Below are positions 1-62,911 of a stretch of DNA of 62,911 bases, one piece after another. The notes below the pieces were generated by a model that saw only the letters and a list, made by a program, of their open reading frames with translations, made no database searches and was not told where the DNA came from. A program made the translations under genes and the position numbers. Origin of the DNA: a virus; IMG/VR virus record IMGVR_UViG_3300045988_079349; one strand, given 5' to 3'. Positions within the stretch are counted from its first letter, which is position 1, and each line of letters begins with the position of its first letter.

Positions 1-84
1 CCGGCGCGAGCCCGTGGCTGTAGCTGTAGGAGCCGTAGTTCGCAGACCCATCGCCGTAGACACCGCAAACGAGGTTCGAGGCCC
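1..84 (-). repeat. DGR variable repeat VR2
   Basis: ccggcgcgagcccgtggctgtagctgtagg... is about 84 nt collinear with the TR at 60135-60233. All roughly 20 mismatches fall where the TR has T on the plus strand (A on the coding minus strand). The GC-rich 3' block GGGCTCGCGCCGG is identical to the one in the TR (IMH-like). Confidence 0.75.
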
Positions 85-448
85 AATTATCCTTTTCGGG
101 ACTTCCCCAAGGGGTAACCAACCAGAACGAATTCTTGATATGAGGAGTCAGAATATGATTGTACTTTCGGTATTCATCGAAAGTAAGGGGCGCGACAGTA
201 GTATTTAGTGTGCCGTACCCTTTATATCCATCCATTGCGGTGAGATCGACATCACGGGCGATAGCCTTGATACCGGTATTTTTAAACCAAGACTCAATGG
301 TCTTCCGCGAACCACTCTCTTTATAGTTATTGGAGTCTCCAAAAACAGAATAAATTTCTACCTCAAGGGCAATCACGAAGGGATTACCATTAATTTCGTC
401 AAGAACGAGGCACTTTACTCCATTTACAGTAATAGTTTCACCAATCAT
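1..448 (-). CDS. DGR target protein 2 (C-terminal C-type-lectin-fold carrying VR2); 3' end runs off the window start
   Basis: Minus-strand ATG near 446-448 (MIGETITVNGVKCLVLDEINGNPF...) reads without any stop to position 1. The C-terminus ...WLVTPWGSPEKDNWASNLVCGVYGDGSANYGSYSYSHGLAP aligns codon-for-codon with VR1 and with the AAC-rich TR. It is absent from the ORF track only because no stop lies inside the window. Confidence 0.7.
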   Translation of the reverse strand, partial: MIGETITVNGVKCLVLDEINGNPFVIALEVEIYSVFGDSNNYKESGSRKTIESWFKNTGIKAIARDVDLTAMDGYKGYGTLNTTVAPLTFDEYRKYNHILTPHIKNSFWLVTPWGSPEKDNWASNLVCGVYGDGSANYGSYSYSHGLAP

Positions 449-464
449 GTTATTTCTTCCTTTC

Positions 465-650
465 TTAATTAGCAAATTCTTCAACCATGCGGAATAACAT
501 TTCAACTTCATCATCAGTTATATTTTCTAGGAAAATTCCATATTTGCGGCAGATCTTAGCTTGTAGGTCAAAGTCATCTTGCGCTTCTGGGGTTTTAGCA
601 AGTTCTCTTGCCGCTAACTCGAAGGAGCCTGTATAGATAAGAAATGACAT
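465..650 (-). CDS. hypothetical small protein (61 aa)
   Basis: ORF track; immediately upstream of target 2 in an apparent operon. Confidence 0.45.
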   Translation of the reverse strand: MSFLIYTGSFELAARELAKTPEAQDDFDLQAKICRKYGIFLENITDDEVEMLFRMVEEFAN

Positions 651-19008: not shown

Positions 19009-19040
19009 TTTGTAATAAGATTTGACAATCTAGTTTTTTT

Positions 19041-27028: not shown

Positions 27029-27047
27029 TTGGAAGGAGTGAAGAAGA

Positions 27048-28100: not shown

Positions 28101-28102
28101 TT

Positions 28103-28140
28103 AAAAGGGGATAGGGAAATATCCCTATCCCCTTTATTTA
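28103..28140 (+). terminator. intrinsic terminator after the capsid gene
   Basis: AGGGGATAGGGAaatATCCCTATCCCCT followed by TTATTTA. Confidence 0.6.
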
Positions 28141-28161
28141 TTGAGAAAAAGGAGATATAAT

Positions 28162-31842: not shown

Positions 31843-33237
31843 ATGCGTTTTGGTATTCGTGAGATTTGCGATGTAGTGCTTCGTGCGAAGAGTTATCAAA
31901 CCCTTGGTAATCGTAAGTTCTACAAAAATGAACCAGTTTTATATTTCGACACTTTAAGAACCTCTACTCTTGAGGGTGCTGCAACAACAGTATATGCGCA
32001 GGGCGGACGTGGATATTCTAGATTGATTGCTTGGGAAGGTGAGCGTACTCTAACCTTTACAATGGAAGATGCTCTACTTTCTCCAGAAAGCTTCTCTATT
32101 CTTTCTGGTGCTGGCCTACTTGATGCAACAAAAGAAGCTCCTATCTATGTTCACCAGACTTCTCAGATTGAAGTTGAGACTGCCAATACTATTATTGTTC
32201 CAGACAAGGCTTGCTGGAATGGATTTACTGACCATGATAATGAAATGTATCACCGTTCTGCCGACATCTTTGTGATGGTGTTAGGCGATGATGGTCAAGT
32301 TAATGCCGAGCCTTGTATTCCTGTTTCTGTAAGTTACACAGAAGATGGCAAAACAACTTTAACTTGTTATTCTCATGCTGGCGTACTTCCTGCGGGAACC
32401 ATTGTTTTAGTTGACTACTATGTAAAGCGTACCGGTGGAGCACAGATGATTGAAATTACTGCTGATAAGTTTGGTGGTAACTATTATCTTGAGGCTTCAA
32501 CTCTATTCCGTCGTGAGAGCGATGGCGTAGATATGCCTGCTGAATTTATTATTCCTAACTGTAAAGTTCAGAGTAACTTCACATTCAGTATGGCAGCTAA
32601 CGGAGATCCTTCTACCTTTACCTTTACAATGGACGCTTTCCCTGATTACACCAAGTTCGACCAAACCCATAAGGTATTGGCTGCAATTCAAGTAATCACT
32701 GATGAAAGCGGTGAAACCGAGGAAACTCGTGAGCCATGCTCTGAGAATGTAGGTACTTATGAGAGCGAAGCTGCTGATGTGACTGTAAGTTTCGTATCTA
32801 ATAGTGCTACAGCCGCAGAGCTTGATGTTACTGGTAGTGTAACAGGAAAGGCTTATGACACTGAGACTTATGGCGATACTATAGCAGAAGCTGCTCAGAT
32901 CAGCCTGCAAATCCCAGTAGAGAGTGATAGTACCCAATATAATGTGGTAACTACAAACCCAGCTTATGAGAGATACTTCTCTACAGACCCAGGAATTGAA
33001 GGTAATACAAAGACTCAAACCGTTAGCGGCGAAGAGTTAGCTCAAGGATTGCTTGTAATTCTTACTAGCGAAGATCAGGCAACTCCTATTACCGCAAAGA
33101 TTAATAAGATTAATGGTGATTTTGAAAAGACTTATACCATTAATAACAAACTTAGCTTTGCTACATCTGCCGCAGCAAAAGCTAAGACTAGCACCCGCAA
33201 TAAGTTAGTCTCTGTCACCGAGGATGACGGAATTTAA
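31843..33237 (+). CDS. major tail (tube) protein with an Ig-like C-terminal extension (464 aa), TAG-free
   Basis: ORF track; AAGGAGG RBS; lies upstream of the chaperone and tape measure genes; strong terminator after it. Confidence 0.5.
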   Translation: MRFGIREICDVVLRAKSYQTLGNRKFYKNEPVLYFDTLRTSTLEGAATTVYAQGGRGYSRLIAWEGERTLTFTMEDALLSPESFSILSGAGLLDATKEAPIYVHQTSQIEVETANTIIVPDKACWNGFTDHDNEMYHRSADIFVMVLGDDGQVNAEPCIPVSVSYTEDGKTTLTCYSHAGVLPAGTIVLVDYYVKRTGGAQMIEITADKFGGNYYLEASTLFRRESDGVDMPAEFIIPNCKVQSNFTFSMAANGDPSTFTFTMDAFPDYTKFDQTHKVLAAIQVITDESGETEETREPCSENVGTYESEAADVTVSFVSNSATAAELDVTGSVTGKAYDTETYGDTIAEAAQISLQIPVESDSTQYNVVTTNPAYERYFSTDPGIEGNTKTQTVSGEELAQGLLVILTSEDQATPITAKINKINGDFEKTYTINNKLSFATSAAAKAKTSTRNKLVSVTEDDGI

Positions 33238-38400: not shown

Positions 38401-41400
38401 AAAAAGGAACAGAAGAATTTGCAGAATAGATAGAAGACGCTAACAAAAAAGCTAAAGAATTAATTGAAACATATAAATTGTTTGGGCAATATAGTTATGG
38501 TTCAAACGGATAGATAGTATTTGATGAAGGAGTACTAGAGAATCTTTAGGAGCAATAGGCTAGTAATCTTAGTTCATTAGAAAGCGCCAATTATTAGACA
38601 TAGATAACTGCGTCTAATGCAAATTTGAAAGCTTTGGCTACTAGTACGATTAGAGAAACTGGACTAACCTATGGTTACTCTTATCAAGATCGTTCTGGAA
38701 ACGAGTAGGAGATGCAGCGTCTCATTTCTCATGATATGTTAGATGAATTAGCTAATAATTATTATGAGTTAATGAGCGAGGCTTCTGACGGATTTGTAAC
38801 TCTTGAGAGTGGAATTTAGCTTTCTGTCGACGCAGTTGCAGATGCGAAGGATGCATTAGAGGAATATGCCGATGCCGCAAAATCGGCGGCAGAAGAAACA
38901 GAATACTTTGCTAGCTAGATTTTAACTAATTATGTTGGACAAAATTATGAAGGTACAATAGATAGCAATGAAGATTTAATTCGATAGGCTGCAAGTAATC
39001 AAGTAGGTAATACTCAACTTTCTTCTGGAAAAACTGTAGATGAAGCATTGGCAGAAATTAATGCTGCAAATGCCAATAATGCTACTATTAAAGATTTGCT
39101 AAGAGAACTATATAATACGGATTATATGTTCTTAACCGATGAAAGATTGGGTAAGGAATACGCGGAAAAAGTTCTTGGATGGGATACTGCCTCTATTGGT
39201 TATTCTGGAGGATGGGGAAAAGGAACTCTTTCAAATGCCGCTACTGGCGAATCTGTAGAAATGACAGACTAGGCTATGCGCATTGCTTTATAGAATCTAC
39301 TTATGTAGGAGAAAATTTTAAAGCAGTATGCAGACGAAATAGAAAATAATGCTGAAGGAGCTATTGATATAGATTCTTACATTTAGGAGTTAAATGAAGA
39401 TATTAATAATATCAATACTCAATTTGGAGAGGAATTTGGTACAGCATATGCTCAAGCCTTAGCAAATGAAGGAGATATAGATTTTGTTAATTTATTAGAA
39501 CAATCTTTTTCTCCTGAATAGGTAGAAGAGCTAAAAACTAAGGTTAGTTCTGGATTGTTAGATATTCCTTAGGAGTTTCTTGATGCTTTAACTTCTTCAA
39601 TAGAAGATTATGACGCCAGTAATTATTGGGCTAATTAGCTTGAGACAAGTAAGAAAAATGCGGCAGAAATTGGTAGTATCCTTTCTTCTTACCAAAATGA
39701 AGAGGAATTAGATGAGGATTAGCTAGCCTTCTTAGATGAATTGATGGCTAAATATGAAGATTTATCTAATTTACAAGCCACAAATTAGCATGACTATCTT
39801 GAAAGATTAAGAGAGATACAAGAACAAGAAGAAAAAACGTATCTTACTGGATTAGAGGATTCTGCTAATTAGCAAAGAGAGGATATTTAGCAATTAGAAT
39901 CAGAAATAGCAAGATTAGAAGATGCTGGATATGCTCCACTAGATTTAATAGAGGAATTACAATAGAAATTATAGAAGCTTGCAGACACAGAGTATAAAAT
40001 TTAGATTGCTCTCGATACGGATTTAGCTTCTGATATTGATTAGGCATTCGGGTTAGCCAATGAAATAGAATAGCTTAAAGGATATTTGGAAGATGGCCTT
40101 GAAATAACATATGATAGAGCCTAGGAAATAATAGCGGCTGGCTATGGCGCTATGCTTACTAATGCAAGAGAAACGGCAGATAGTACTATTGAGTTAAATA
40201 GAGAAGTTGTTAATAATTTTATTGATGGTAAATAGTAGGAAATAGAAGCTGATAGATTAGCAAGAATAAAGTAGTTAGAAACTGAGAGAGAAGCATTAGT
40301 CGCTAAGCGAGATTCTCTTTATGCTGGATTAGAAGCTTTAAAATCTGGGCTTAAAGCAGAGGATGCGGCCTCTAAAGCTGCGGCACTTGCACAAGCAGCT
40401 ATTTATAAAGCTGATGCCGATTCAAAAGAAATTACAGCTGAAAAAAAGGCTGACGCAGAAGATTTAGCCAATGAAGAAATTGCTAATGATGCCGCCGCTT
40501 TAGTCGATGCTTTGGGAATAATGCATGAAACTGATGCAGAAAATTCTCAATAGGCGTATGATGATATTGAAACTGCGGCGAATCAAAGTGGAGCATCATA
40601 GGTTAGCGTTTGGAATTAGGTTTAGTTAGCAGCAGTTAAAGCATCGTAGGCAATAAAAGCTGCTTATAGCGGGCAGGAAAGTACTTATGATCCCGTGCTA
40701 TTTGAAGGACAGGATAATGTCTCCGTGGGGGCGACCAGTTCACAAACTGCTGATAATACATATGTATTTTCTAAAGCAGATGTTTAGACATTAACTGATG
40801 AAATCCTTAATGCCGCTTAGAATAATATCGAAGTATTAAATAGCGCTACAGAGCAAGCTATTGATGAAATATAGTTAGAATTGAATTCTGTTAATGCTTA
40901 GATCGGTTCTGTAGATGCTGGAATTGCGGCACTAAAAAGCGCTAATTTATCTTTAGATAAAACATAGGCTAACTTAGGTAGTGGTTCTGGCGGAGATAAC
41001 GAAGGTACAAAATATGATGCCGAGGATGAAAAAACTCTTGAAGATATAGAAGATAGATACCATGAAATAACTCGTGAGATTGAGAATTAGAATGATTTAT
41101 TGGATGATATTGGTAATAATATAGATAGAGCATATGGAGCGAAGAAATTATAGGCTTATTAGAAAGAGCTTCAAGAGTTAGAAAAACAGCAAGCTAATTA
41201 TAATAAGATGCTTGATGAGGCTGAGACTTATCTTGAGAAAGATAGATCAGAACTTCAAGGATTATTTAACAATTCTCTTATTTTTGATGAAAATGGAGAA
41301 ATTGAAGGTTATCAAGACGTTCTTCAATCTATTATTGATGATTACAATAATAACTTCTTAACCGATTATAATGCTTTCTTATTGATGTTTAGTAGTCTTA

Positions 41401-44234
41401 CTAAAGATGAATAGGAAGCTAGATAGGCGGAATATGATAGTTGGCAATTACAAAAAGAAGTTGCTGATGAATTATTCTAGGCTCGTTAGGACGCTTTAGC
41501 TCAATATGAAGAAACTCTCGATAAGATTCAAGATGTAAAAGATGAGCAAGAAGAGCTAGAAAGAAATATTGCAGATAATAGATTAAATTAGATTGAATAT
41601 AAACTTGAAGTTGCGATAGATATAAAAGATGCTAAAGATGCGGTTAATGAGCTAACAAGACAAATAGCAGAATCTTTTGGTGATGAGCTAACTCATGGAA
41701 TGGAAGTCGCTCGTATTGATAAAAACAGTATGAACGAGAACATTGAAATCATCAAGAGCTATGAAGAAGCCCTTAAAAGTTATCAGGAAGAATTAGCTAA
41801 TGCCACAGATGCGACTAATATTGATGAGATTGTAAGTAAGTTATCTGACTTACAAGGTAAAATGATTTCTACCGCAGAGGCTTTGCTTGATTGGGTAGAA
41901 GGTCTTGAAGAAATGCTACCAGATGCATTAGATGCCGCGTCAGAAAGATTTGCTGCTTTTACTGATTAGCTTGATCATAATGAATCTGTTCTAGGGCTCA
42001 TCAAAGAATTATATGCTCTTTAGGGAGTTACATATAAGACCGAAGAAGGATTTGAATAGCTTCAAGAAGTAAGCGAAGAAACTATGAAGGCTTAGGTCGC
42101 CAATGCATAGCTGAATAAACAATGGTATGACGGAATCCGTCAAGAACTATTGGAAGCTCAAGCTGCATTAGATGCATTAGGCGGAGATGAAACCGATCCT
42201 GCATATGATGGTTTAAAAGCTAATAGAGATGCTCTACTAGAAGAATTTAATGAAGCACAAGAGGCTATGTTAAGTTCCGCGCAAGCTGCTATGGAGACTG
42301 CTTAGGAGATGTATACTCAAGCTATTGAAAGAGCAGTATATGAATTTGGATAGGCTGTTTCTGGTGGAGTAGGATTAGATCTACTACAAGACAAATTCGA
42401 TCATTATATCGAACAAGAGGATAGATATTTAGATAAAGTAAATGAGGCGTATGAGGTATCTTCTTGGTATAATAAACTACAACAAGATATTGATAAAGCT
42501 ACTAACTCTAAGATGAAAGATTAGTTAAAGTAGCTGCAAGAGGAAATTGATATACGTAGAGAGAATAATACCTTATCTGAGTACGATTTAGAAATTCTCG
42601 AAGCTAAGTATAATGTTCTTTAGGCTTAGATGGCACTTGAAGATGCTCAAAATGCAAAGAATCAACTTAGATTAGTAAGAGATAGTCAAGGTAACTGGAA
42701 TTATCAATACACCGCAGATGCGAGCTAGATAGCAGATGCAGAGCAGAATTTACTTGATGCGGAGAACGAATGGTATAATATAGCAAAGCAACAGGTAGAG
42801 GATGTTACAGGAGAGATTATTTCTACTTGGCAAGAGTGTCAAGATAAGATAAAAGAAATCTATTCTGATATGACCTTGACTGATGAAGAAAGATCTGCTC
42901 GCGCGCAAGAAATTTATTCTTATTATACGCAGAAGGTTAAGGACTTAGAGAGCGAAAAACAGATCGCTATTTAGGATATGACCGAAGCCGGCAATAAAGC
43001 CTTAATTGATATGGCTATTGTTGCGGGAGATGAGGTAAGTGACTTAACTGGAATTACAAGTCAAGAAATTCAAGATATTATAGCTAATTCCGGCTCTAGC
43101 ATTATTGATTTGTTGCTATCAGATAATGAGTAGATTCAAGATATAGTAGGAAGTAATACAAAACTTATTGACCTATTTGATAACGTATTTGCGAAAGACT
43201 TAGCGAATATGACCGCTAATGCCGGCAACTTTGAAGAGTTTTTATCTAATGCAATGGATGAAGCTAGCGGAGCGATGGAGGATTATCAAACTACTGTTTC
43301 TGGAGTAGCCGATTAGACTGGAACAAGTCTTGATGATTTAAAAGATTATATCGACGATGTTTCAACTTCTACTGATTTGTGTTCTGAGGCTGGATCAAAA
43401 GCTGTTACTTAGATGTTAGAATAGATAAGCACTATTCAAGATTTAAGTCAAGAGTATTTAGATATGGCCGATTCAGTCAGAGAATATGTAAGATCACTTG
43501 AAGAAGCCGCTAGAGCTGCTGGTAACACAATAGAAAGCGCAGGAAGTATAGATAAAGATGACTTGCCTTCTTCTGATTCAAGTCAATCTTCTGATACTGA
43601 TAAAGGTAGCTCAGGCGATAGTGGTAGTGGATCTTCCAGTAGTGGAACTGGAGGAGGTAATGGAATCCCCGAAGTAGGAGATGAAGTTATTTATACTGGT
43701 GGAACTTACTATCATGATTCTTATGGCACTGATCCTGCTGGTAGACGCGGTCCAGGTAAAAAGGTTAGAATAACAAACATAGCTAAGGGTAGACCTTATC
43801 CAATCCATGTACAGTCCAATAATTCCGCTTATGGATGGCTAAAAGAAAGTTAGATAAGTGGCTTCGATACTGGAGGATATACTGGAGAATTTGATAATGC
43901 TAAATTAGCTTTCTTACATGAAAAAGAGTTAGTTTTAAATCAAGAGGATACGAAAAATATCTTGGCGGCGGTCTCTGCTATGAGAGCCTTTGGACCTAGT
44001 TTTATAGCCTCTATTGAGAAAACTCTTGACGGGAACGCACTATCTATTTCTAGTATTATGGCATCTAGATTGGGAACTAATACCTAGATTGCGCCGACAG
44101 ATAATGTGGTTTAGCCAAATATAAATATTGAGCGAGTTGAATTCCCCAATGCGACATCTTCTGATGAAATTCAAGATGCTATTCGTAGTTTGGCGGATGA
44201 TGCTACTCAATGGGCGAATAGAAGAAAAGAATAA
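35436..44234 (+). CDS. tail tape measure protein, ~2,932 aa, with roughly 100 in-frame TAG codons
   Basis: AAAGGAGG RBS then GTG. One frame stays open to a TAA when TAG is read as sense. It joins the track ORFs 37878..38153, 38169..38354, 39048..39272, 41208..41414, 41700..41969 and 43464..43853, all in the same phase. Long Ala/Glu-rich coiled coils, a hydrophobic segment (38169..38354) and a C-terminal SH3-like domain. Confidence 0.8.
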
Positions 44235-52227: not shown

Positions 52228-54124
52228 TTATTTAAACGATATGGAATTTCTTACTGCCCTTGATAAGTTAAACATTAAAACCCATTATGCGAAAATTATT
52301 TTGCTTTCTTTCGATGAAAAACCTATTAGAGAGATACAAGGTCGCATAACAGCAGGAAGTTTAAGTGTTAATGGTTCATCTTCAGTGCGCAGAACAATTA
52401 GTTTAACTATGCTAGCCGATGGAAATAATAGCGATATAGAGAATATAGATAACGAGATTTCGATAAACAAAAAGGTTAAAGTGTTTGTTGGATATAATAA
52501 CCCCTTAAGATCTTATTCTAGTTATGGAGATATAATTTGGTTTCCTTGCGGACTATTTGTCTTGTCTAATGCATCAATAGCAAGATCGACTTCTGGATGG
52601 ACAATTTCTATAAATGGAAAAGATAAGATGTGTTTATTAGATGGAACTGCGGGAGGTACCTTTCCAGGTTCTATTACCCTCCATGAAAGTTACATATAGA
52701 AGAATGATGGAGATATAGAGATTGTATATCCGACCATATTCCAGATTATATATGAAGCGGTAAACCACTGGGGAGGGGAAGCTATAGAGAATATAATTAT
52801 TACAGATATAGAGGAAACCTGTAAAATGTTGGTTAAGTATATTGGTGACAAACCAGTATATTTTAGTAATAATTATGAGAGTATGGATTTCTCTCCCAGC
52901 TCAGACTTCCCGCATATGGTAAGCTATGGATAGGATGCTGGATATAAAGAAACAGAATTTACATATCCCGGTGAATTGATTTTAGATGCTGGTGATACTG
53001 TAACTGCATTACTAGATAAGATAGTGGATGTTCTTGGAAATTTTGAATATTTCTATGATATAAACGGTCGTTTTATCTTTTAGGAGATAAAGAACTATCT
53101 TAATACTGGAAGCCCTTTAACTGAACTTACGCCAGCAAACTATGTAAAGAGTTATAATAATGCTAAATTCTTATATTCTTTAACCGAGCTTGATACCACG
53201 ACTGCGATAACCCGCAGTCCAAAGTTTGATAATATTAAAAATGATTTTTATGTTTGGGGTAAAAGAAAAACTACATCTGATGTAGAAGTGGACATTAGAT
53301 ACCATTTAGCTATTGATACCAAACCTATTATAGATTTGGCTGGGTATTATATGTGGGCTATTAGTGATAAAGAAACTGGACTAATAGTAAGATATGATTT
53401 TAATAATATAGCTAGTGATTACTCTGTATCTGGATATGAAACAAAATTAATCGGGTCTCCATGTGATGAGTGGCGAGAAGAGCTGTACCGTAGAGCATTA
53501 AATGCGCAGGTAACTAATAGCGTATATGATAACTACTATGATTCCGAATTAATCGCGGAATGGCGTAATTTATATGATCCATTGAATGAGAAATGGGATG
53601 AATACGATCATTGGAACCCTGATGTTTTTAACAATCCAGAAAATTTGAACTATTGGTTAGATTTTATAGATACGGGTTCAGAGATGGGAAAATATTCAAT
53701 AAATGAAATAGGCAGAAGGACTAAAGTGGTTAATGGTTCTGATATAACTTCCGTATATAATATGGAAGCCCCTGATATTATTTTTATTGAAGGACTTGAT
53801 TAGGACTTGATAGCAGAATATCGAGGGATAGGTTAGAGATTTTTTGTTCTTACTTCTGAATACTATGATTTATTTTCAATAAGCTCTACTAATGCGAGTT
53901 GTTTTGATAAGATTAGAGAAATGTTGTATTAGAATTTAAATTATAATACAACCATATCTATTACTTGCTTACCAAAGTATTATATGGAGCCAAATAATAT
54001 TCTCTATATTGAAGATAAAGATAGCGGCATTAGTGGAAATTACTAGATAACTCAGTTTACTTTGCCTCTTGCTTATAATGGAACTATGAGCATTACTGCA
54101 ACGGAAGTATTAACGAGAGTATAA
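52220..54124 (+). CDS. baseplate/tail hub-like protein (~634 aa), about 12 TAGs
   Basis: In frame with track 52220..52699 and 53288..53803; C-terminal LYIEDKDSGISGNY.ITQFTL resembles baseplate proteins. Confidence 0.5.
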
Positions 54125-54140
54125 GGAGGAGTAGGAGATA

Positions 54141-54731
54141 ATGCCAACTGTTGGTCAAGTATATTATAATGTAATAGATAATAACAGTGGTAGCTACGTC
54201 TCTAGTGGGTAGAATATATTTAGTGATATTATTGCCTAGGTAGGAGCCTCTCAATTTAATAAAGTTGGGGTATAGGCTCCTGCCGGCACAAAAATAGTTA
54301 TGAATGAATCAAAGACTATTATGGTTGGTAGAACTGGAATATATGAACTAGATGATGACATAGCTATTACTAATATGTATTTTATTAGACCTAGAAAGTA
54401 TGAAAAAGATGAAGAAGCCTCCTAGTAGGCGATTGAGTAGGGAACTGAAGGAATGTAGGCTGCGGATAAAAAACGAGCAGACGATTTGGAACAATTTTAT
54501 AAAGAAAATCCAGTTATGCCAGACCCGGATACAGATCCAGAGGGATATAGAGCTTACTGGGATTCATATAATAATATTTAGACTACCTATATAGAGGCTT
54601 ATTAGACAGCATTAAGTTTGTATAATTAGGGTGTAAACGGTATATATGTGTTACCCAATCCTGATAATATTGATGCTCCAGAGAACTATTAGGATTTGTA
54701 TAATGTTATTATTGATTTTATCTATGTATAA
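54141..54731 (+). CDS. hypothetical tail protein (~196 aa), about 14 TAGs
   Basis: GGAGGAG RBS then ATG. Confidence 0.45.
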
Positions 54732-54745
54732 GGAGGTGTCAAACT

Positions 54746-56656
54746 ATGGAAAGTTTCTATGGAGGACCTAAAGGTAGAGATTTTGATATTAAGGAAATCT
54801 TTACTAGCAAATATTAGATGGATAGAGATTTATCAAAGGGTTGGACATCTTCTATCTTCCCAGGTGATCTCGTTGTTGTATCATATGGTTTGCCAAGCGA
54901 TACAAACTATGATATTTATAAGAATGAAGATTTATAGAATTATGGGAAAAGCTATAACTCTACTCTTTGGCAAAAATGTTATAATGATAAAGATGGAAGC
55001 GGATCTGCGGGTGGCCTATACTATAAGATGATAGCTTCCATGACTGGTAATACACCAAGAATTAGCTTAAATGACACAGAAGTCTTGGATGCAGATGAAG
55101 ATCCAAACGTGGTTTGGGATAATACCGATCTAGATAGACTTTGGCTTACTTTTCAGTTACCATAGAGTTAGAATATCTAGTTAGGAGAGACTACTATTCT
55201 GGATTGTAATGAACTTCCAGAAGCGTCTTTAGACACGACCGATATAAATAATCCTAGCTTAAAGTTGTCCTTACCGCAATCTTAGGTAATTAATACTGCA
55301 TTAGTAGAATTATTAGATGTAGGTGAAAATCCAAGAGTATCTTTAGAAGTTTCAGGAGATTATTCTATCAACAAACCGGCAATTAAGTTTTATCTACCTG
55401 TATCTTAGTCATTATAGGAAGGTATTACTACAACTTTAGATGCTAATGAAAAACCTAGATTTGAAATAAATTTTGATGATATAAACAATCCAATTATTAA
55501 TTTCTTCTTGCCTCAAAGTTAGGTGATGGGAGATCCAGAAACTACGGTAGTGGGACCCGAGGAGAATCCATCTGTAGTAATGGATGATTCGAATATTAAT
55601 GCGCCAGTATTGAAATTTAGTTTACCAGAAGCGGTTAAATTTTACTATGGCGAGTTACTAGGCGAGAGAACAGAAGGAACTTACGAAGAAACTAATGATT
55701 CTTTTGTGGATTATAATGTTGGTGATTATTACATTAATGCACCAACCGGTTTTATTTATAAAGTAATCAATAAAACTGGAACCACTTGTACTTTTTAGTA
55801 TATAGCTTGTATTTAGTCTCCTCTTCCTACTATAGAAGTTACAGAATTAAAGCCATATACAGATAAAGGTTCTGAGTTTGAGCCGACAATTCCTACGGTT
55901 ACAAGGGAGTTTACTAACGAAGAACAAACTGCCTGGAAGCTAGTTTTTGGGCTGCCATCCGCGGTTAAATACACTACTTCATTTGCTTTTGTTGGAATTG
56001 ACGAAACTGGCTCTGTATCCAATGAAATTACAGCAGATGACACTATAAATATTGATTTTAAGATTCCTAGAGGATCAAAATTATACTCTGGAACTTAGAT
56101 TTCTGATTCAACAACATCTACTGTTATTGAGGGTGCGAAAGCTGGAGATTTATATTTAAATACAGAAACCGGAGATATATATGAATTAAATTCTTCTGGT
56201 ATATGGGAGAAAAATTCCGGCAATTTAAAAGGCCCTGTTGGCGAGGCTCTTAATATCGTTAAGAGCTACACAATAAATGAGACAGACACGCTAAAAGATT
56301 CTTTATAGAATGGTGTAGATTATATTGAAGAAAACTATGATGGAGAAATTAGCGCGTAGGATATTTTCTCTATTACGTGGGTAGAATATGAAACTAACCA
56401 AGAAACTTCTTACTGGTATTATAAAGCCGCAGATGGAGTGTGGGGAAGAGTCTAGCTAACTGGCGGTATTTCTAACCTTATTGATAATAGTTATAATAGT
56501 GAAGATGGTGGAGAAGTAACAAATAAAACTTACAGTATTCACTATATTAATAGCTTAATAGGTGGAACTATTACAAATAAGGATAGATAGACATATTCTG
56601 CAACATAGATTGAAGAATTACTATCTTGGGGAAGTTTTAGTGATTTAATACCTTAA
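54746..56656 (+). CDS. tail fibre / receptor-binding protein candidate (~636 aa) with repeated LP(Q)SQ beta-strand motifs, about 22 TAGs
   Basis: In frame with track 55523..55798; repeats FQLP[TAG]S[TAG]N, LSLPQS[TAG]V, FFLPQS[TAG]V. Confidence 0.5.
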
Positions 56657-56689
56657 TTTATATTTAGAGAGTATAAAGGAGGGCCTAAA

Positions 56690-57472
56690 ATGGCTTTATT
56701 TAAGATTTTTAAAGGCGCAGAAGAGGATCTTAATGATGTACCTCTTCATGAAGGATACGCCTATTTCTGCGAGGACACAGGAAATTTATTTATTGATGTA
56801 AGTAATATAGAGGGCGAACGTCTACAGGTCAATGCCTATGCTGCTCAAGTTTTAAAGAATAATGTTACTGAAATTGATATTGACGACATTTTTCTTAAAA
56901 ATATGACTGCTACTGTAGCGTAGGGTGGAACTGGACATGATACATTAACTGTTAATGCTTTGCTAGTAGGAAATGGAACAGAAGCATTAAAAATGATTGA
57001 AATTGCAGCCGGCAGTTTAGTAATCGGAAATGCGGAAAATGGTGTGGCTGGTTTACAAGGTGCTGGTGCTTTATACGCGATTACTGCGGGTGCACCTACA
57101 TTTGGTACACTTCCAATCTAGGTTGGAGGAACTGGAGGCACGACAGCCGCGCGAGCCAGAACTAATTTGGATGTATATAGCAAGTCAGAAACAGATAACC
57201 AAATTACTGGTAGCACATCTGTAGCTTATACAACCACTCTTGCCGCGGCATCATGGGTATTGAACGGAGATATGTATACATAGACATACTCTAATACTGC
57301 TTTAACTTGCGGAAAAGCGGGAAATGTGCCACCTATCATTACTTATACTTCTAATTTAGAGGAATATAGTAAAATTGATCATGCTGATGCAACTGTAGGA
57401 TCTGGAATCACTTTCTACACAAAAGATAAACCAGAAAGCGATATTGCTATTGTTATTATTGATGTAAAATAA
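56690..57472 (+). CDS. tail fibre protein (~260 aa), 4 TAGs
   Basis: Track 56690..56923 extended through TAGs; motif GGTGHDTLTVNALLVGNGT. Confidence 0.5.
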
Positions 57473-57512
57473 AAAAAAATAGGGAGAACCTTTTAATTAA
57501 GGTTCTCCCTAT
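57473..57512. terminator. bidirectional intrinsic terminator
   Basis: AAAAAAAAATAGGGAGAACCttttaattaaGGTTCTCCCTATTTTTTTTA. Confidence 0.6.
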
Positions 57513-57517
57513 TTTTT

Positions 57518-57976
57518 TTATTCCTCGCAAGGAGGTCTACTGTATAAGTGATAATGCGGTTTTTCTTCTCCAAACCATTTCCATCTAAGGTAATCATCTA
57601 ACACTATTGCTAAAAGGCTCAAGAAGAACCATGCAATAGAGAAGGGCAAGCAAATCTGCCCCATAAAGTTAAGTGGAATGTTAGAATAATCCCAAATACC
57701 TAAACCTAGTCTTATATTTAAAACTAATCCAAAAATTAATTCTAAAGCAGTTATAATTAAAGATCCTTTTACTCCTTGAGTTAAGATAGATTCTTCCCAA
57801 AGAATATTCTCATTCATTAGTCCAATTAATAGAAAGCATAAGCCACCTAGCAAAAACATAGACCAATGACAAACTCCAAGGCTAATAAAAGTTTTATAGA
57901 GGAACTCTATACTGTAATATAGAGTTCCTCCTACTACGAATAGAATTATATTTTTATTCGCTGTCTGTGTCTTCAT
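57518..57976 (-). CDS. integral membrane protein (4 predicted TM helices), TAG-free
   Basis: ORF track. Confidence 0.55.
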   Translation of the reverse strand: MKTQTANKNIILFVVGGTLYYSIEFLYKTFISLGVCHWSMFLLGGLCFLLIGLMNENILWEESILTQGVKGSLIITALELIFGLVLNIRLGLGIWDYSNIPLNFMGQICLPFSIAWFFLSLLAIVLDDYLRWKWFGEEKPHYHLYSRPPCEE

Positions 57977-58616
57977 AACTCAATTCAATAGCTTTTAATT
58001 CATCTATTGAATTAGCTCCAAATATCTAGGTTTTATATTCTTGCATTAAGTGGTATTTTGGATATACCGCATTAGAAATAGCTAAACTTAGAGCGGATAA
58101 TTGCTCTAAAGTCCATGGTACACACTCTTCGTGTCGAGCGTGCCACTCAAGCGTAGGATTTTCTACTTCAGCAGCTACAGCCACCTAGAATTGATTGAGA
58201 TTTAAGCTAATCTCAGATTGGTCCTCCTACGTAATTCCATATTCTTTTCCATCGACCCAAGTTAACGGGTGGGTAGCAAGATACTCTGCGAATAGTTTCT
58301 TGTTTTCCTCTTGTTTATCATATTTTGCCTAATCTAAATCAGCGATGAAAGTACCATCTTCTTGATTATACTTTGAATAGTTAGGAATGACGTTTGATGG
58401 AATTGTTTCCAACTCTAATACTGTAACAGCATTAGGTTGATTTAATACATCGGCTTTGACTAGAGTGTAATGAGTATCACTATCTGAGCCGATAACCCCA
58501 GTTCCCTCTTCTTCCTCGCAGGCAACGACAATACCATTTGAGGATTGCAGTTTAATGTAACGTGCTTCTGAAAGAATATCAACTACTATATTCTCTCTAT
58601 TTAATAGAATATACAT
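57954..58616 (-). CDS. hypothetical protein (~220 aa) with 4 in-frame TAGs
   Basis: Track ORF 58329..58616 continues through the TAG at 58329 to a TAA at about 57954. Confidence 0.4.
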
Positions 58617-58768
58617 TACTTTATTTCAACTCCTTTGAATAATGAACGAAAATAATTGTCCATGTCCTGAATTATATAAAAGCAAGTTCCTTTAGAAATA
58701 TGCGCCCTCCAGCCCTAATAAGATTTCTAAACTTCTTCAGTTGAAATTTTATTATCTAACCATAAAGC

Positions 58769-59833
58769 CTACATTTTCTTTAGTTTTCTGCGCTGATGAG
58801 CTACTTTTTTCTTGAAAGGAAGTTGTATTATATGATTAGTTTCTGTGAGATGAAAATTCCACTTTAAATATTTAAAAGGAGCGTGGCGTTCGCCATCTGC
58901 GTGAATAGGAGAAATTCTAGTGATAGTAGTTTTCTTCTTATTCATCTTTAATCCTTGTTTATTTAAGCGAATTTCTATTTGTTTCTCACATTCGGCCAAG
59001 TATTTACTGTCATTATGGAGCAAGTATAAATCATCCATATAACGACCATAATACTTAATATGTAACTCTTCTTTTATGAAGTGGTCAATTTCGTTCAATG
59101 CTAGCAATGCGAATAATTGTGACGTTTGACTTCCTAATCCCAGGCTCTTTCTTTCATATTCATAATACTTACGACCAGGCTAGAAATGAGTAACATTAAC
59201 TCTTTCATACTTGTGTCGCTTACTTGTGTAATATATTTTACCGGGTATAGGTGAAGTGTCTTTTGTTAGCTTAAAAGAAAATGTATCTATCAAGTAACAA
59301 CATAACTAATAAACAAGTTTATCTTTTATTAGCCGTTTAGCTGCTTTCTTTAAAGATTCATGGTCAATAGAATCAAAATATTTCTGTATATCAATTCTTA
59401 ATCCATAAAAATCTTTTCCTAACCCATACTCTTTATGAGCCTATTGGAGATGTTTCTTAACTCTTTCCAGAGCGAAGTCTATTCCCTTTCCTTTTAGGGT
59501 TGCACAATTATCATAGATAAATCTAGGAGTTAATTCTGGTAGCAAAACTTGTTCACATAACGCATTTTGTACCAGTCTGTCGTTGATATGACACGCTCTT
59601 ATATCTCTTGGTTTGCCTCGTTCGATTATCGAAAAACAACTAAACACAAGCTGTTCGTATTCACACGCTCGCAGGTCAGCTTCTGTTTTTAAAATTGTTT
59701 CTATCCTATTCTCTCCAAAATTAATTGTACTATCTTTCCATCGAACGTTTCGACATACCTTATAAGACGCCTCATACATAGCGTCAAAACTACAAAAACG
59801 CTCGAAAGCAGTATCTTGTTTTATTTCAGACAT
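58769..59833 (-). CDS. DGR reverse transcriptase (~354 aa) containing 2 internal in-frame TAG codons and a TAG stop
   Basis: Track ORFs 59441..59833 and 58769..59107 are in the same phase; the gap between them is open except for TAGs at 59441 and about 59180. Motifs PRDIRACHINDRLVQNALC, SQLFALLALNEIDHF (DGR-type motif 4) and YGRYMDDLYLL (YxDD). Confidence 0.8.
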
Positions 59834-60134
59834 ACTTTCTCCTTATCATGTAGCTATAGTGGTAGCTACTCGAGCTCCACGTCTACAGTCTTACTTTATC
59901 CACTTTTTCAGTGAAATGGTTAAGTTCTCCTTAGATGAAAAGGCAGATCTACCTATAGTATATTATTCGATAGTTGTAGAGCAAAGCTCTTTAATGGTCT
60001 CTCAATCTCTTCCCCACATAAAGTGAGTGCAATCCAGAGTAAACCTTAATTAGATGGATAATAATATACTCCGGGGTACTATTTAGGCGTTGCTCGTTTG
60101 CGCTGCTCCGCAGCTTAACTCGCAACATGATAGC

Positions 60135-60233
60135 TCCATCTAATCCGGCGCGAGCCCGTTGCTGTTGTTGTAGTTGTTGTTGTTCGCAGATCCATCGTTG
60201 TTGACATTGCAAACGTTGTTCGAGTTGTTGTAG
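60135..60233 (-). repeat. DGR template repeat (TR)
   Basis: The minus sense is Asn-codon (AAC) rich: ...NYNNSNNVCNVNNDGSANNNNYNNSNGLAP. It matches VR1 and VR2 except at its adenines. It lies between the avd-like gene and the RT. Confidence 0.8.
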
Positions 60234-60430
60234 TTACGGGACCGAAAGATACAGAACTTAACCGTAGAAAAATATTATCGACCTCTCCTATATCTCTTAG
60301 GAGCTGAATATCTATGCTCTGTTATAAGTTTATCTCTATTTTTTCTATCTTGGATTGACTCTTTTACTCTCTTTGTCAATCTAGCTAGATGTTCAAAAGA
60401 GCGTCTTTTCTTTTTGCTGTTCTGAGCATA

Positions 60431-60769
60431 CTAATAAATACATAGGTCGATTTGTCGAAATATACTATCACAATATTCTAGTGCTTTATTATGATAGTCA
60501 TTTCTCTTTGCAAGGGTTTCTTTGTCTTTCAAGTTTATCTTACATGCCTCATAACAGCAAGCATGTAAGCCCTTTCCGCACTTAATTATATCGTACCCGA
60601 ACGCTTGAAGAGGTTGACCCTCTCCAAGCAGTCCAGGCTTACAAATTTGTTTTCCATCCTTATCATATTCTCTAGGACGAGTTAAGACTAAAATATATCC
60701 CATTAAGTCGCGTGCTTTATAAAGACAATCTTGCTTTGATATGTGTCTATCTTTTACTTTTACAGACAT
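60431..60769 (-). CDS. putative accessory variability determinant (Avd-like), 112 aa
   Basis: ORF track; size and position (target - this gene - TR - RT) fit the canonical DGR layout. Sequence similarity to Avd is not recognisable by eye. Confidence 0.45.
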   Translation of the reverse strand: MSVKVKDRHISKQDCLYKARDLMGYILVLTRPREYDKDGKQICKPGLLGEGQPLQAFGYDIIKCGKGLHACCYEACKINLKDKETLAKRNDYHNKALEYCDSIFRQIDLCIY

Positions 60770-60850
60770 TTAAAATCTCCCTCACTTGAATATATAAAAT
60801 TTTAGTTGGACAATTTAATCTTAACTGTCCCGAATTGTTATTTTATTGTG

Positions 60851-62618
60851 TTATCCGATAACGAAAGCCGGCGCGAGCCCGCAGCTGCTGTAGTAGCCGT
60901 AGGTGTCCGCAGACCCATCGATGCCGACAAGGCAAACGTAGCTCGAGGTGTTGTAGTAACGGGACCTCTCCCATTGATACGCATATGAGCTAGTTGGATT
61001 ACCGTTTGCATCTCCTAAGTACATAACCCTTCTAGAGTTGCTTGTGTAGTAACTATACGCAGCATTATAACCTTGAGTACACTCTGCTTTAGAGGTAGTA
61101 CTGTTTGAAGTGGAGATAGGAGAGTAAGAATCTAATCCGTATTCTCTTTCGGATAATAAGAATACTGTTTCATCATTATAGGTTACAGAACCATTTCTAG
61201 AGCTATTTGTACTAGGACAAGTACCCTTCTTTACTGTCTTAATAGAATCTTTCGCGCTACAGCGGTTATAGAAATCTTGACATAGATCTCTAGCAGTTGA
61301 TCCAATCCATACTGCATTGCTACCAAAATCTGTAGAATTAGGAAGAGCGGAGACAGCATTAAAAGCTAAAGTTCCTGTTCCATCCTAATCTGCGCCAACG
61401 CATCTCATTAATACTTGATTACCACCTAAAACAGAAGATGATAAACTTACTCTTTTAGTCTTACCTACGCAATTTTGTCGCTCTCCAGATGATGCCTTAG
61501 CGGCCCATGTTTTTAATCCAGCCCACCATTTAGCATCACCAACAGCAGTTTCAGATCCCCACTCCCAATAGCTAGCTGTTACTGTAACAGTTTTATTACT
61601 TGGAGCCGTATAGTTAGTTCCTGCTGCAACCTTGATAGTAATAGTTGTAGAAGAAATAGCTGTACTACCGTCGCCTTTAATTGTAAGAACGTTCCCACTT
61701 AAAGATAAAGTTAAGCCAGAAACGCTAGTTGGGCTATAACTAATAGCTCCATCTCCAGGACGGGTAATAGTAACTTTTACGCCTGCACTATAGTTATCTC
61801 CATCAAGAGCTACAGAAGTTGGACTTACTGTTAAAGTCCCAGCAGCTTTATTGATAGTCCAGTTTACATCAAGATTTGATGTAGTTCCATCGGCCCATCT
61901 ATAATTACTATTTAGTGTGAAAGTAGCAGTATAGGTTCCAGCGTTAGTCGCGGAAGTTGTCCCGCCAATCGTCATATAAGTGGTATTAAAGTTATTCCAA
62001 TAGGAAGCACCACTTACTGATTGGCTACTACCAGTATAGGTAAGATTATTCTTCCATGTTGGTTTCGGCACCGATTTTCTTTCAACAGTAACATTGAAAG
62101 AAGCAGACTGAGTTACTCCATTTTCTGTGTAAGAAACAGTAATTTTCTAGGTGCCAACCGCAGTTAATGACGTTGGAGAGCAACTATACCCGGTAACCGC
62201 GGATGATGTACTATCAGAATAACTTGCTGTAACTACCATTCCTGTTGTTTGGAGAGTGTCTCCATATTCATAAGTTGTCTTAGTTGGGTTAGTAGTAACC
62301 TAAATACTAAGAAGTTTATGAATAACAGTAATGTCTTGAGTGGTCTAACAAGTTTCTCCTGATTCAGAGTAAGTAATTGTTACTTTAGTAACCCCATCAG
62401 TTAAAGGGTTTGGAGTAACTTGATACCCAGTTACTTCTGCTGTTGTTACAATAACGCCGTCCATGCCGTAAGATGCGGTGACTACCATTCCCGCGGGATT
62501 AAAAGTATCACCAGCAAGATAGCTCGTTTTAGTAGGGGGAGTGGTTACTTCAATTTTTACAAGAGAAAGAGAACCTCCACCTTTTCCACCCTATTCAGCT
62601 AAAATACATTTAGGCAAA
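60851..62618 (-). CDS. DGR target protein 1: tandem Ig-like (Big_2-type) domains plus a C-terminal C-type-lectin-fold ending in VR1; contains TAG codons and an apparent +1 frameshift near 62080-62110
   Basis: GAAGGAGG RBS then TTG (about 62617). The frame A ORF runs to a TGA at about 62081. Frame B (the track ORF 61385..62071) continues through a TAG to a TAA at 60851-60853. The C-terminus reads ...GNPTSSYAYQWERSRYYNTSSYVCLVGIDGSADTYGYYSSCGSRPAFVIG. Confidence 0.65.
60868..60966 (-). repeat. DGR variable repeat VR1
   Basis: About 99 nt collinear with the TR; all roughly 20 differences fall at TR adenines; shares the GC-rich GGGCTCGCGCCGG 3' block. Confidence 0.8.
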
Positions 62619-62911
62619 TTATTTACCTCCTTCTATCTAGCTATTGTTTCAAACAAATCTAAACTACTAGATAGAAGGTCGAGGATGGAAGCGATCTTCG
62701 CTCCAGTCTTTTAGAAAGCCATAAACAATTTCCGAGAAAAAGTACACTTTTTAACAGGAAAAATACTTTTTCTTCCTAGATAACAAAAAATTGGGAAAAG
62801 GGTAAGAAACCCTTTTCCCAAAAGTGAGTATCTTACTCTTTTCAAATATACTTGAAAAAGAGTATAGATTGATTATATATGTTTGACCAAGTTCAGTAAA
62901 GTGTACTTTTT

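What the first reader, a model, noticed from the sequence alone, without database searches (positions are those of the whole stretch)
58769..59833. The DGR reverse transcriptase and target 1 themselves require TAG read-through
The reverse transcriptase frame is interrupted by TAG at 59441 and about 59180, and its annotated end at 58769 is also a TAG. Target 1 has at least 4 in-frame TAGs. If suppression is phage-supplied and late, mutagenic homing and expression of the diversified receptor-binding protein would be gated to the late phase or to suppressor-positive cells. DGR coupled to stop-codon recoding does not seem to be a commonly described arrangement. Target 2 (1-448) has no TAG in its visible portion.
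Basis: inference. Interest (0 to 1): 0.7.

Follow-up and report, generated by a model that had tools for sequence, protein, structure and literature searches.

The report
Amber-recoded phage retroelement, already a known kind

Summary
The DGR reverse transcriptase (RT), 59833..58616 on the minus strand, is one 405-codon frame with six in-frame TAGs: 59441, 59306, 59180, 58769, 58727 and 58715. It has no TAA or TGA until the TAA at 58616. So 58769 is an internal sense codon, not the end.

The accessory protein Avd has one TAG, placed before its fourth helix. Target 1 starts at TTG 62614 and has five TAGs, the first at codon 9.

In 27 related RTs, TAG alternates with CAA/CAG at invariant-Gln columns, including the GxxxSQ motif. 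TAG is therefore read as Gln.

A conspecific contig, 98.9% identical over window 52618-62911 with the same six RT TAGs, carries a Gln-like tRNA(CUA). Its VR1 differs from the window's at 18 sites, all at TR adenines, while the TR is identical. The TAG-bearing DGR is therefore active.

TAG count in the RT ranges from 0 to 17 across relatives and loosely follows how recoded each locus is. One relative has a TAG-free DGR locus. This fits recoding of the whole late gene module rather than a DGR-specific gate.

DGR RTs with in-frame TAGs have been reported in recoded gut phages (bioRxiv 10.1101/2023.08.07.552389; PMC12386605). Gating to the late phase remains an untested inference.

The parts
58616..59833 (-). 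DGR reverse transcriptase, 405 aa. ATG at 59833, stop TAA at 58616-58618 overlapping the next gene's ATG. LGSQTSQ motif at residues 233-239, YMDD at 265-268.
   Evidence: Pfam RVT_1 E=1.8e-16. PHROG 1423 reverse transcriptase E=7e-82. Best PDB sequence hit 8ub7_A. Full length conserved in homologues.
59441..59443 (-). In-frame TAG, RT codon 131
   Evidence: Aligns with CAA in L001 and L008, and with ATG or GCT in other relatives.
59306..59308 (-).
59180..59182 (-). In-frame TAG, RT codon 218
58769..58771 (-). In-frame TAG, RT codon 355.
   Evidence: It is CAA in L001-L003 and TAG in L006-L009, and a conserved tail follows it.
58715..58729 (-). Two further in-frame TAGs, RT codons 369 (58727-58729) and 373 (58715-58717), both at nearly invariant Gln columns
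60145..60243 (-). Template repeat (TR), 99 nt, with 35 adenines on the coding (minus) strand
60275..60769 (-). Avd-like accessory protein, 164 aa. TAG at codon 113 (60431-60433) lies between predicted helices 3 and 4.
   Evidence: AlphaFold model with pLDDT 89 has four helices. Top PDB fold hit is 2rld, E=0.04.
60851..62614 (-). Target 1, 587 aa: conserved N-terminal peptide, Big_3 Ig-like domains, C-terminal DUF6273 domain carrying VR1. TTG start. Five in-frame TAGs (62591, 62345, 62300, 62147, 61385).
60868..60966 (-). Variable repeat VR1, ending 15 nt before the Target 1 stop codon
   Evidence: 19 of 19 TR/VR1 mismatches lie at TR adenines. 18 of 18 differences from the conspecific contig lie at TR-adenine positions.
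1..514 (-). Target 2 (200 aa in relatives), cut by the window edge inside VR2 (about 1-81). No TAG and no Gln codon.
57954..58616 (-). Gene translationally coupled downstream of the RT: 220 aa, weak DUF4376 / tail-fibre similarity, 4 TAGs
57518..57976 (-). Last gene of the minus-strand unit: CmpB-like membrane protein, 152 aa, 0 TAG among only 3 Gln codons
57472..57519 (.). 20-bp hairpin with A/T runs on both sides. Likely a bidirectional terminator between the plus-strand structural genes and the minus-strand DGR unit.
62640..62911 (-). Conserved leader of the DGR unit: 12-nt inverted repeat flanking a sigma70-like promoter (62900-62872) and a hairpin plus T-run (62821-62791)

Best explanation
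The window is part of a phage of roughly 146-149 kb (inferred from relatives) that probably infects Clostridia and is distantly related to the phAss-1 group. Its late/structural module is written in genetic code 15, where TAG means Gln.

A complete, active DGR sits at the end of that module on the minus strand: Target 1 with VR1, then Avd, TR and RT, followed by a fibre-like gene and a membrane-protein gene. It is written in the same code, with five TAGs in Target 1, one in Avd and six in the RT. A second, remote target (VR2) lies at the left edge of the window.

The TAGs are decoded by a phage-encoded amber suppressor tRNA(CUA) with Gln-like identity features. By synteny with relatives this tRNA lies roughly 20 kb beyond the left edge of the window.

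Shown:
- The reading frames and their true ends.
- TAG = Gln.
- The suppressor tRNA in a conspecific contig.
- Recent adenine-specific diversification of VR1.

Inferred:
- In a standard-code host, none of the three main DGR proteins can be completed until the suppressor tRNA is active. The RT would stop at residue 130, Avd would lose helix 4, and Target 1 would stop at codon 8. The proteins needed for retrohoming can therefore only be completed after the phage's switch of genetic code.
- This dependence is most simply a by-product of recoding across the whole late module, not a device evolved for the DGR.
For: Reading frames:
- The only interruptions are TAGs. P(no TAA/TGA by chance) is about 3e-9.
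- Homologues of 387-430 aa cover the whole 405 aa, including the tail beyond 58769.

Decoding:
- In 10 codon-aligned RTs, TAG alternates with CAA/CAG at the invariant Gln columns 61, 130, 236 and 239 (GxxxSQ) and 389, and at the nearly invariant 337, 369 and 373.
- In 27 distinct RTs, 55% of residues aligned opposite TAG are Gln, against a background of 3.3%.
- Avd TAG113 and Target 1 TAG9 align with CAA in relatives.

Suppressor tRNA:
- tRNA(CUA) lies at L188 2409-2483, on IMG/VR contig 3300045988_075249. That contig's DGR region (L106) is 98.9% identical to window 52618-62911 and has the same six RT TAGs.
- The tRNA has canonical D and T arms, an unpaired 1-72 position, G73, and shares the acceptor stem GCGGA with the phage's own tRNA-Gln(UUG).

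Activity:
- All 19 TR/VR1 mismatches are at TR adenines.
- Against the conspecific contig, 18 of 114 differences in 10.3 kb fall in the 99-nt VR1, and all 18 are at TR-adenine positions. The TR is identical and the RT differs at only 2 positions.

Code pattern:
- Late module: 301 TAG against 284 CAA/CAG. DGR unit: 16 against 41.
- Sampled early-type and replication genes are mostly TAG-free.

By-product rather than gate:
- RT TAG count is 0-17 across the clade and loosely follows neighbouring genes. Only one TAG position is shared between the window and the 90-92%-identical L001-type RTs.
- L135 has a TAG-free DGR locus.

Literature: the same arrangement was reported.
Against: - The suppressor tRNA is not in the window. 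It was found on a conspecific contig and on relatives, not on this exact molecule.
- No expression-timing data exist, so dependence on a code switch rests on the assumption that the host uses the standard code and on the published model.
- TAG use is not strictly late. A FolD-like gene (7 TAG), a GIY-YIG endonuclease (4) and a sigma-factor-like gene (9) also carry TAGs. The switch may therefore come early enough that little gating results.
- The DGR unit uses TAG less often than the structural genes (28% against 51% of Gln positions). This is unexplained.
Confidence: 0.85

Rival explanations
1. The TAGs in the DGR genes are a selected timing device. They hold back RT, Avd and the diversified fibre until the phage has switched the code, confining mutagenic retrohoming to late infection or to cells with the suppressor.
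For: - Every main DGR protein is disabled early by a TAG: Target 1 at codon 9, RT at codon 131 before the core motifs, and Avd before helix 4.
- 37 of 40 IMG/VR RT loci with at least 58% identity read as intact frames under code 15. Most of these carry in-frame TAGs.
- A conserved promoter-plus-terminator leader hints at additional control of the unit.
- The general model of recoding as a regulator of late genes exists.
Against: - TAG positions are not conserved. Only codon 369 is shared between the window and the 90-92%-identical L001-type RTs.
- Counts range from 0 to 17 and loosely follow the locus-wide level of recoding.
- L135 keeps the same DGR layout with no TAG.
- The DGR unit has fewer TAGs per Gln position than the structural genes.
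- No timing data exist.
Confidence: 0.2
2. The RT is a decayed pseudogene. The TAGs are real stops and the DGR is a fossil.
For: Under table 11 the frame breaks into pieces of at most 136 codons. Three of the 40 related IMG/VR loci do carry truncated RTs (L111, L138, L145).
Against: - There are no TAA, TGA or frameshifts in 405 codons.
- Amino-acid conservation continues across every TAG.
- VR1 has diverged at 18 TR-adenine positions from a 98.9%-identical contig while the TR stayed identical.
Confidence: 0.01
3. The host itself reads TAG as sense, or supplies the suppressor, so there is no switch and no gating.
For: No tRNA was found in the 62.9-kb window. Only 13% of predicted TAG-recoded genomes in one survey had a detectable matching tRNA.
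Against: - A conspecific contig and relatives encode tRNA(CUA).
- Long runs of replication-type genes are TAG-free although they contain many CAA/CAG codons.
- Relatives are binned with Oscillospiraceae, Eubacterium and Clostridia. To my knowledge these use the standard code.
Confidence: 0.03
4. TAG encodes pyrrolysine or another residue rather than Gln. ARAGORN labels the CUA tRNA 'Pyl'.
For: ARAGORN's label.
Against: - TAG aligns with Gln 55% of the time, against 8% for Lys or Glu, and sits at invariant Gln columns.
- The tRNA has a normal GG D-loop, a GGTTCGAATCC T-arm and a 5-nt variable loop. From my own knowledge, tRNA-Pyl lacks these features.
- Its acceptor stem matches the phage tRNA-Gln.
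Confidence: 0.02
5. Suppression is partial, and the TAGs set the ratio of short to long isoforms, for example 112-aa against 164-aa Avd or 354-aa against 405-aa RT.
For: Avd TAG113 and RT TAG355 each precede a discrete C-terminal element.
Against: - These TAGs are CAA in close relatives, so no isoform site is conserved.
- Upstream TAGs in the RT would block any product first.
- A 2803-codon ORF with 98 TAGs needs near-complete suppression.
Confidence: 0.04

Closest known systems
DGRs of TAG-recoded persistent gut phages (Lou et al., bioRxiv 10.1101/2023.08.07.552389)
   Same: The RT has multiple in-frame TAGs and lies next to a recoded tail-protein target. [quoted passage not shown]
   Different: It is a different RT lineage: the RT sequence printed in that paper is unrelated at first sight. 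Here there are two targets, an Avd that also needs read-through, and a relative with a TAG-free DGR locus for comparison.
[quoted passage not shown]
   Same: Amber suppression was noted in seven RT genes. These phages also have tRNA(CTA), a GxxxSQ motif, and fibre targets with Ig-like domains and a C-terminal variable domain.
   Different: Those are Crassvirales, mostly predicted on Bacteroidota-type hosts. This phage's portal is nearest to Phass-1 and large Enterococcus phages, with Clostridia-type binning.
Bordetella phage BPP-1 DGR (mtd-avd-TR-brt)
   Same: Same gene order (target, Avd, TR, RT), adenine-specific TR-to-VR changes, and a GC-rich shared 3' end. The RT's best PDB sequence match is 8ub7_A, a 328-aa RT with IGSLTSQ and YMDD. 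From memory I take this chain to be the BPP-1 RT.
   Different: BPP-1 uses the standard code. The target domain here is DUF6273 behind Ig-like repeats, and Avd is longer (164 aa) with no sequence match to known Avd.
Phass-1 group of TAG-recoded phages of about 136 kb (PMC10607447)
   Same: Large tRNA sets that include tRNA-Sup(CTA). TAG = Gln occurs mostly in virion genes. No dedicated aminoacyl-tRNA synthetase was reported. The portal is 35% identical.
   Different: No DGR is mentioned in that paper, and the relationship is distant.
Code-switch model for recoded phages (Borges et al., bioRxiv 10.1101/2021.08.26.457843)
   Same: [quoted passage not shown]
   Different: That paper does not mention DGRs or reverse transcriptases. 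Here the most abundant virion proteins are TAG-free, while a sigma-factor-like gene and a FolD-like gene carry TAGs.

Membership tests
Diversity-generating retroelement (DGR) | Reverse transcriptase of the DGR type with an (I/L/V)GxxxSQ motif and a YxDD catalytic box | tested here: met
   LGSQTSQ at residues 233-239 and YMDD at 265-268. Pfam RVT_1 E=1.8e-16. Best PDB sequence hit 8ub7_A aligns IGSLTSQ and YMDD.
Diversity-generating retroelement (DGR) | TR/VR pair whose differences lie at TR adenines | tested here: met
   TR 60145-60243 against VR1 60868-60966: 19 of 19 mismatches at TR adenines. In VR2, all mismatches in the last ~80 nt are at adenines.
Diversity-generating retroelement (DGR) | VR at the 3' end of a protein-coding target, with a shared GC-rich end (IMH-like) | tested here: met
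   VR1 ends 15 nt before the Target 1 stop codon. The 14-nt CGGGCTCGCGCCGG is identical in TR, VR1 and VR2.
Diversity-generating retroelement (DGR) | Accessory variability determinant (Avd), a small basic four-helix-bundle protein between target and TR | tested here: inconclusive
   Position, size and basic tail fit. The model (pLDDT 89) has four long helices. The top PDB fold hit is 2rld, annotated as 'S23 ribosomal protein family', but at only E=0.04. From memory, unverified, this is the family to which Avd is related. There is no Pfam, NCBIfam, PHROG or PDB sequence match.
Diversity-generating retroelement (DGR) | Evidence of ongoing mutagenic homing | tested here: met
   Window against the 98.9%-identical contig: 18 differences in VR1, all at TR-adenine positions, with the TR identical.
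Diversity-generating retroelement (DGR) | Variable residues displayed on a C-type-lectin-like (or Ig-like) fold | not tested
   Only a Pfam DUF6273 match, E=1.5e-10, at residues 427-584 of the query used. No structure was predicted for the target.
Code-15 (TAG to Gln) recoded phage | In-frame TAGs in conserved genes that align with Gln in homologues | tested here: met
   ORF gain and longest ORF under TAG-as-sense.
Code-15 (TAG to Gln) recoded phage | Phage-encoded suppressor tRNA with a CUA anticodon | tested here: met
   Absent from the window. Present on conspecific contig 075249 (L188) and on contigs 084596, 091188 and 080502.
Code-15 (TAG to Gln) recoded phage | Standard-code host and a TAG-free gene set usable before the switch | tested here: inconclusive
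   TAG-free replication-type genes and Clostridia MAG binning. The host has not been identified directly.
Code-15 (TAG to Gln) recoded phage | Temporal switch: suppressor active only from a given stage of infection | not testable with these tools
   Needs time-resolved transcriptomics, tRNA sequencing or proteomics of an infection.

The most novel reading that the evidence does not exclude
The code switch acts as a translational lock on hypermutation. The RT stops at residue 130, Avd loses helix 4 and the fibre target stops at codon 8 unless the phage tRNA(CUA) is active. The unit also sits behind a conserved promoter-terminator leader. Mutagenic retrohoming would then be confined to the post-switch phase, when many genome copies exist. 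Lineages would tune this lock by gaining or losing TAGs, from 0 to 17 per RT.
Probability: 0.2. Interest if true: 0.5.

Novelty: new member of a known kind. Interest (0 to 1): 0.27.

Why it matters
For annotation, standard-code gene calling splits this RT into four pieces and truncates Avd and the target, so DGR finders will miss or mis-size such cassettes.

For biology, the locus gives a clean example of an amber-interrupted DGR that is demonstrably active. It comes with a natural series of relatives carrying 0 to 17 TAGs in the same RT. That series could be used to test whether stop-codon recoding really times gene expression in phages.

It does not reveal a new kind of system.

Tried and rejected
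- **GenBank phages:** no DNA-level relative was found beyond a 95-nt match. By protein, the best RT hit is 35% identical.
- **Exact-protein look-up** of a left-end gene found nothing.
- **Hunt for the suppressor tRNA:**
  - None in the window or in 9 RT loci.
  - None in the 20 kb left of the window's counterpart in contig 152426.
  - None near the 632-aa gene in 80 loci.
  - None in the tRNA array of about 27 genes in relatives, by ARAGORN or Rfam.
  - A 117-nt tRNA-like gene with a 42-44-nt insert next to the tRNA-Gln genes was considered as a suppressor. Its anticodon could not be resolved.
  - A nearby weak tRNA-Sec hit has anticodon GUA and is probably tRNA-Tyr.
  - The CUA tRNA was finally found about 6 kb past the array.
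- **Invertible promoter:** the inverted repeats around the Target 1 promoter, together with a nearby serine-recombinase gene in relatives, suggested an invertible promoter. All 30 loci examined have the same orientation, so this was dropped.
- **Circular window:** the right end does not continue Target 2's frame, and relatives continue with other genes, so the window is not a circle.
- **Avd:** no match in Pfam, NCBIfam, PHROGs or PDB sequences.
- **Literature:** the published Borges paper was not held, so the preprint was used.

Full report
**1. What is at the coordinates**

Reading the minus strand from ATG 59833 gives a single frame with TAG at codons 131, 176, 218, 355, 369 and 373. These lie at 59441, 59306, 59180, 58769, 58727 and 58715. 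The first TAA/TGA is a TAA at 58616-58618.

With the window's base composition, 405 random codons would hold about 12.5 TAA and 6.7 TGA. None occurs, and the probability of that is about 3e-9.

The supposed end at 58769 is not an end. Two more TAGs and 50 further codons follow it.

A search of 5.8 billion proteins returned 1073 homologues. The closest ones shown are mostly 385-410 aa, and those aligned cover the whole 405-aa translation. The segment after 58769 (YQGWRAH...FYIIQDMDNYFRSLFKGVEIK) is among the best conserved parts.

The stop codon overlaps the ATG of the next gene (TAATG), which suggests translational coupling.

**2. The cassette is a complete DGR**

The order on the minus strand is as follows.
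- Target 1 (62614..60851) with VR1 (60966..60868).
- An Avd-like gene (60769..60275).
- TR (60243..60145).
- RT (59833..58616).
- A 220-aa fibre-like gene and a 152-aa membrane-protein gene.
- A bidirectional terminator at 57472-57519.

All 19 TR/VR1 mismatches lie at TR adenines. A second variable repeat, VR2, sits at the extreme left of the window in a small target that runs off the edge.

The RT carries LGSQTSQ and YMDD. It matches Pfam RVT_1, and its best solved relative is 8ub7_A, a 328-aa RT with IGSLTSQ and YMDD.

The Avd-like protein has no sequence match anywhere outside this clade. A confident model (pLDDT 89) has four long helices. Its best PDB fold match is 2rld, annotated as 'S23 ribosomal protein family', but the E-value is weak at 0.04.

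**3. TAG is a sense codon for glutamine**

Treating TAG as sense raises the summed length of ORFs of at least 100 aa from 10.5k to 27.3k aa and produces ORFs up to 2937 aa. Treating TAA as sense raises the sum as much (29.0k aa), but the longest ORF is then only 494 aa.

I fetched the DNA of nine RT homologues. All have 3-13 in-frame TAGs and end in TAA or TGA. TAG alternates with CAA/CAG at the invariant Gln columns 61, 130, 236, 239 and 389, and at the nearly invariant columns 337, 369 and 373. Columns 236 and 239 belong to the GxxxSQ motif.

Across 27 distinct RTs, 55% of residues aligned opposite a TAG are Gln, against a background of 3.3%.

The Avd TAG (codon 113) is CAA in two relatives, and the 161-164-aa length is conserved. 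In the model this TAG lies just before helix 4.

Target 1's true start is TTG 62614. It sits behind a GGAGG site, and the N-terminus MPKCILAEQGGKGGGS is conserved. The TAG at codon 9 is CAA in three relatives. Target 1 therefore has five TAGs.

Target 2 has none, but it has no Gln codon of any kind, so that says nothing.

**4. Who decodes TAG**

The window holds no tRNA. By stepwise fetching of related IMG/VR contigs I first found an array of about 27 tRNAs plus a tmRNA roughly 7 kb beyond Target 2. It includes tRNA-Gln(UUG) and tRNA-Gln(CUG) but no CUA tRNA.

About 6 kb further on there is a small cluster: Ser(UGA), CUA, Leu(CAA), Cys(GCA).

The anticodon arm of the CUA tRNA occurs on contig IMGVR_UViG_3300045988_075249, and ARAGORN calls the tRNA(CUA) there. 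That contig's DGR region (L106) is 98.9% identical to window 52618-62911, and its RT has the same six TAGs.

The tRNA has ordinary D and T arms, an unpaired 1-72 position and G73. It shares its acceptor stem with the phage's own tRNA-Gln(UUG). It looks like a Gln-type amber suppressor, not tRNA-Pyl as ARAGORN labels it.

This is shown for a conspecific contig, not for this exact molecule.

**5. The TAG-bearing DGR works**

The window and contig 075249 differ at 114 positions over 10.3 kb. Eighteen of these fall in the 99-nt VR1, and all 18 are at TR-adenine positions, although only 35 of the 99 TR positions are adenines. The TR is identical and the RT differs at just two positions. This is the signature of recent mutagenic homing by an RT that contains six TAGs.

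**6. Is it a gate?**

The dependence itself is solid. Without suppression the RT ends at residue 130, Avd lacks helix 4 and Target 1 ends at codon 8. No TAG-free ORF spans the catalytic motifs.

The genome also shows the published pattern:
- Replication-type genes in and to the left of the window are largely TAG-free.
- The structural module has 301 TAG against 284 CAA/CAG.
- Terminase, portal and virion proteins were identified in that module.

Several facts argue against a device tailored to the DGR:
- TAG positions turn over fast. The window and the 90-92%-identical L001-type RTs share only codon 369.
- RT TAG counts range from 0 to 17 and loosely follow the level of recoding in neighbouring genes.
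- One relative (L135, RT 64% identical) has the same cassette layout and no TAG in eight genes.
- The DGR unit uses TAG less than the structural genes do, at 28% against 51% of Gln positions.
- TAGs also occur in a FolD-like gene, a GIY-YIG endonuclease and a sigma-factor-like gene, so the switch may not be late.

No timing data can be obtained from sequence alone.

**7. Comparison with the literature**

[quoted passage not shown] They also report VR mutation over three years.

The code-switch hypothesis comes from Borges et al., who do not mention DGRs.

By portal similarity, the phage is nearest to the TAG-recoded Phass-1 group and large Enterococcus phages. Relatives appear as 148-149-kb contigs binned with Oscillospiraceae, Eubacterium and Clostridia.

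This is therefore a new member of a described arrangement, in a lineage where it had not been pointed out.

**8. Verdict**

- The end coordinate and the novelty claim are wrong.
- Phage-supplied suppression is supported.
- Late gating is plausible as a consequence of recoding but unsupported as an adaptation.
- Interest is low to moderate.

Noticed in passing
window 62640-62911 (minus strand): The leader upstream of Target 1 is conserved even in relatives with about 61% RT identity. A 12-nt inverted repeat (AAAGTACACTTT / AAAGTGTACTTT, about 160 nt apart) flanks a sigma70-like promoter (62900-62872) and a hairpin plus T-run (62821-62791). This could be a pair of operator sites or an antitermination-type leader. 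All 30 loci examined have the same orientation, so there is no sign of inversion.
   Followed up: partly
window 26339-28698 and 31843-33237: The TAG-free genes inside the TAG-rich structural module are probably the most abundant virion proteins. They include the probable major capsid protein at 27048-28100, with 0 TAG against 13 CAA/CAG, and a virion protein at 31843-33237, with 0 against 15. Suppression may be costly or incomplete.
   Followed up: partly
window 35823-44234: A single 2803-codon ORF holds 98 in-frame TAGs. It needs near-complete suppression at every TAG to be made.
   Followed up: no
window 19022-20126: A sigma-factor-like gene (phrog_5767, E=1e-39) with 9 TAGs sits behind a near-consensus TTGACA-17-TATTAT promoter at the head of the structural module. 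If it drives late transcription, the code switch would have to come first.
   Followed up: no
window 15318-17887: This stretch holds a PTH2-type peptidyl-tRNA hydrolase (15318-15755, TAG-free), a microbial PARG-like protein (15740-16504, TAG-free) and a FolD-like dehydrogenase/cyclohydrolase with 7 TAGs (17063-17887). The hydrolase could be relevant to translation across a code switch.
   Followed up: no
L016 11300-21302 and L024 (IMGVR_UViG_3300045988_091188): The tRNA array of relatives contains a tmRNA gene (114.6 bits). It also has a twister-P1-like ribozyme hit, below the Rfam threshold (51.7 bits, E=2e-9), immediately 5' of tRNA-Ser (L016 15127-15184). A 117-nt tRNA-like gene with a 42-44-nt insert in the anticodon region (L024 4894-5010) lies next to the two tRNA-Gln genes.
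   Followed up: partly
L135 (IMGVR_UViG_3300045988_145614, 137.7 kb): A relative with the same target-Avd-TR-RT layout: RT 64% identical and no TAG in eight genes of the fetched locus. It is useful as a natural control for the effect of recoding.
   Followed up: partly
L183 and L184: An unrelated RT (26% identity to this one) has 12 in-frame TAGs against 3 CAA/CAG. This looks like a second, independent recoded lineage; no TR/VR pair was looked for there.
   Followed up: no
window 55500-56500: This is a second hot spot of differences from the conspecific contig: 64 of the 114 differences fall within about 1 kb of the fibre gene 54746-56656. It is not associated with any TR, and may reflect recombination or selection on another receptor-binding region.
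   Followed up: no
window 1-100; L109, L110 and L138 starts: The window starts inside VR2, and several IMG/VR contigs begin about 1 kb (one only 23 nt) upstream of the RT. Assemblies seem to break at the DGR repeats, so these cassettes are often split across contigs.
   Followed up: partly
L186 3873-7487: The genes just upstream of the suppressor tRNA cluster in a relative carry 3-5 TAGs each. Two of the three have weak matches to the Mtd N-terminal domain (E=3e-5 and 5e-4, both below the Pfam threshold). This hints at further fibre-like proteins outside the main structural module.
   Followed up: no
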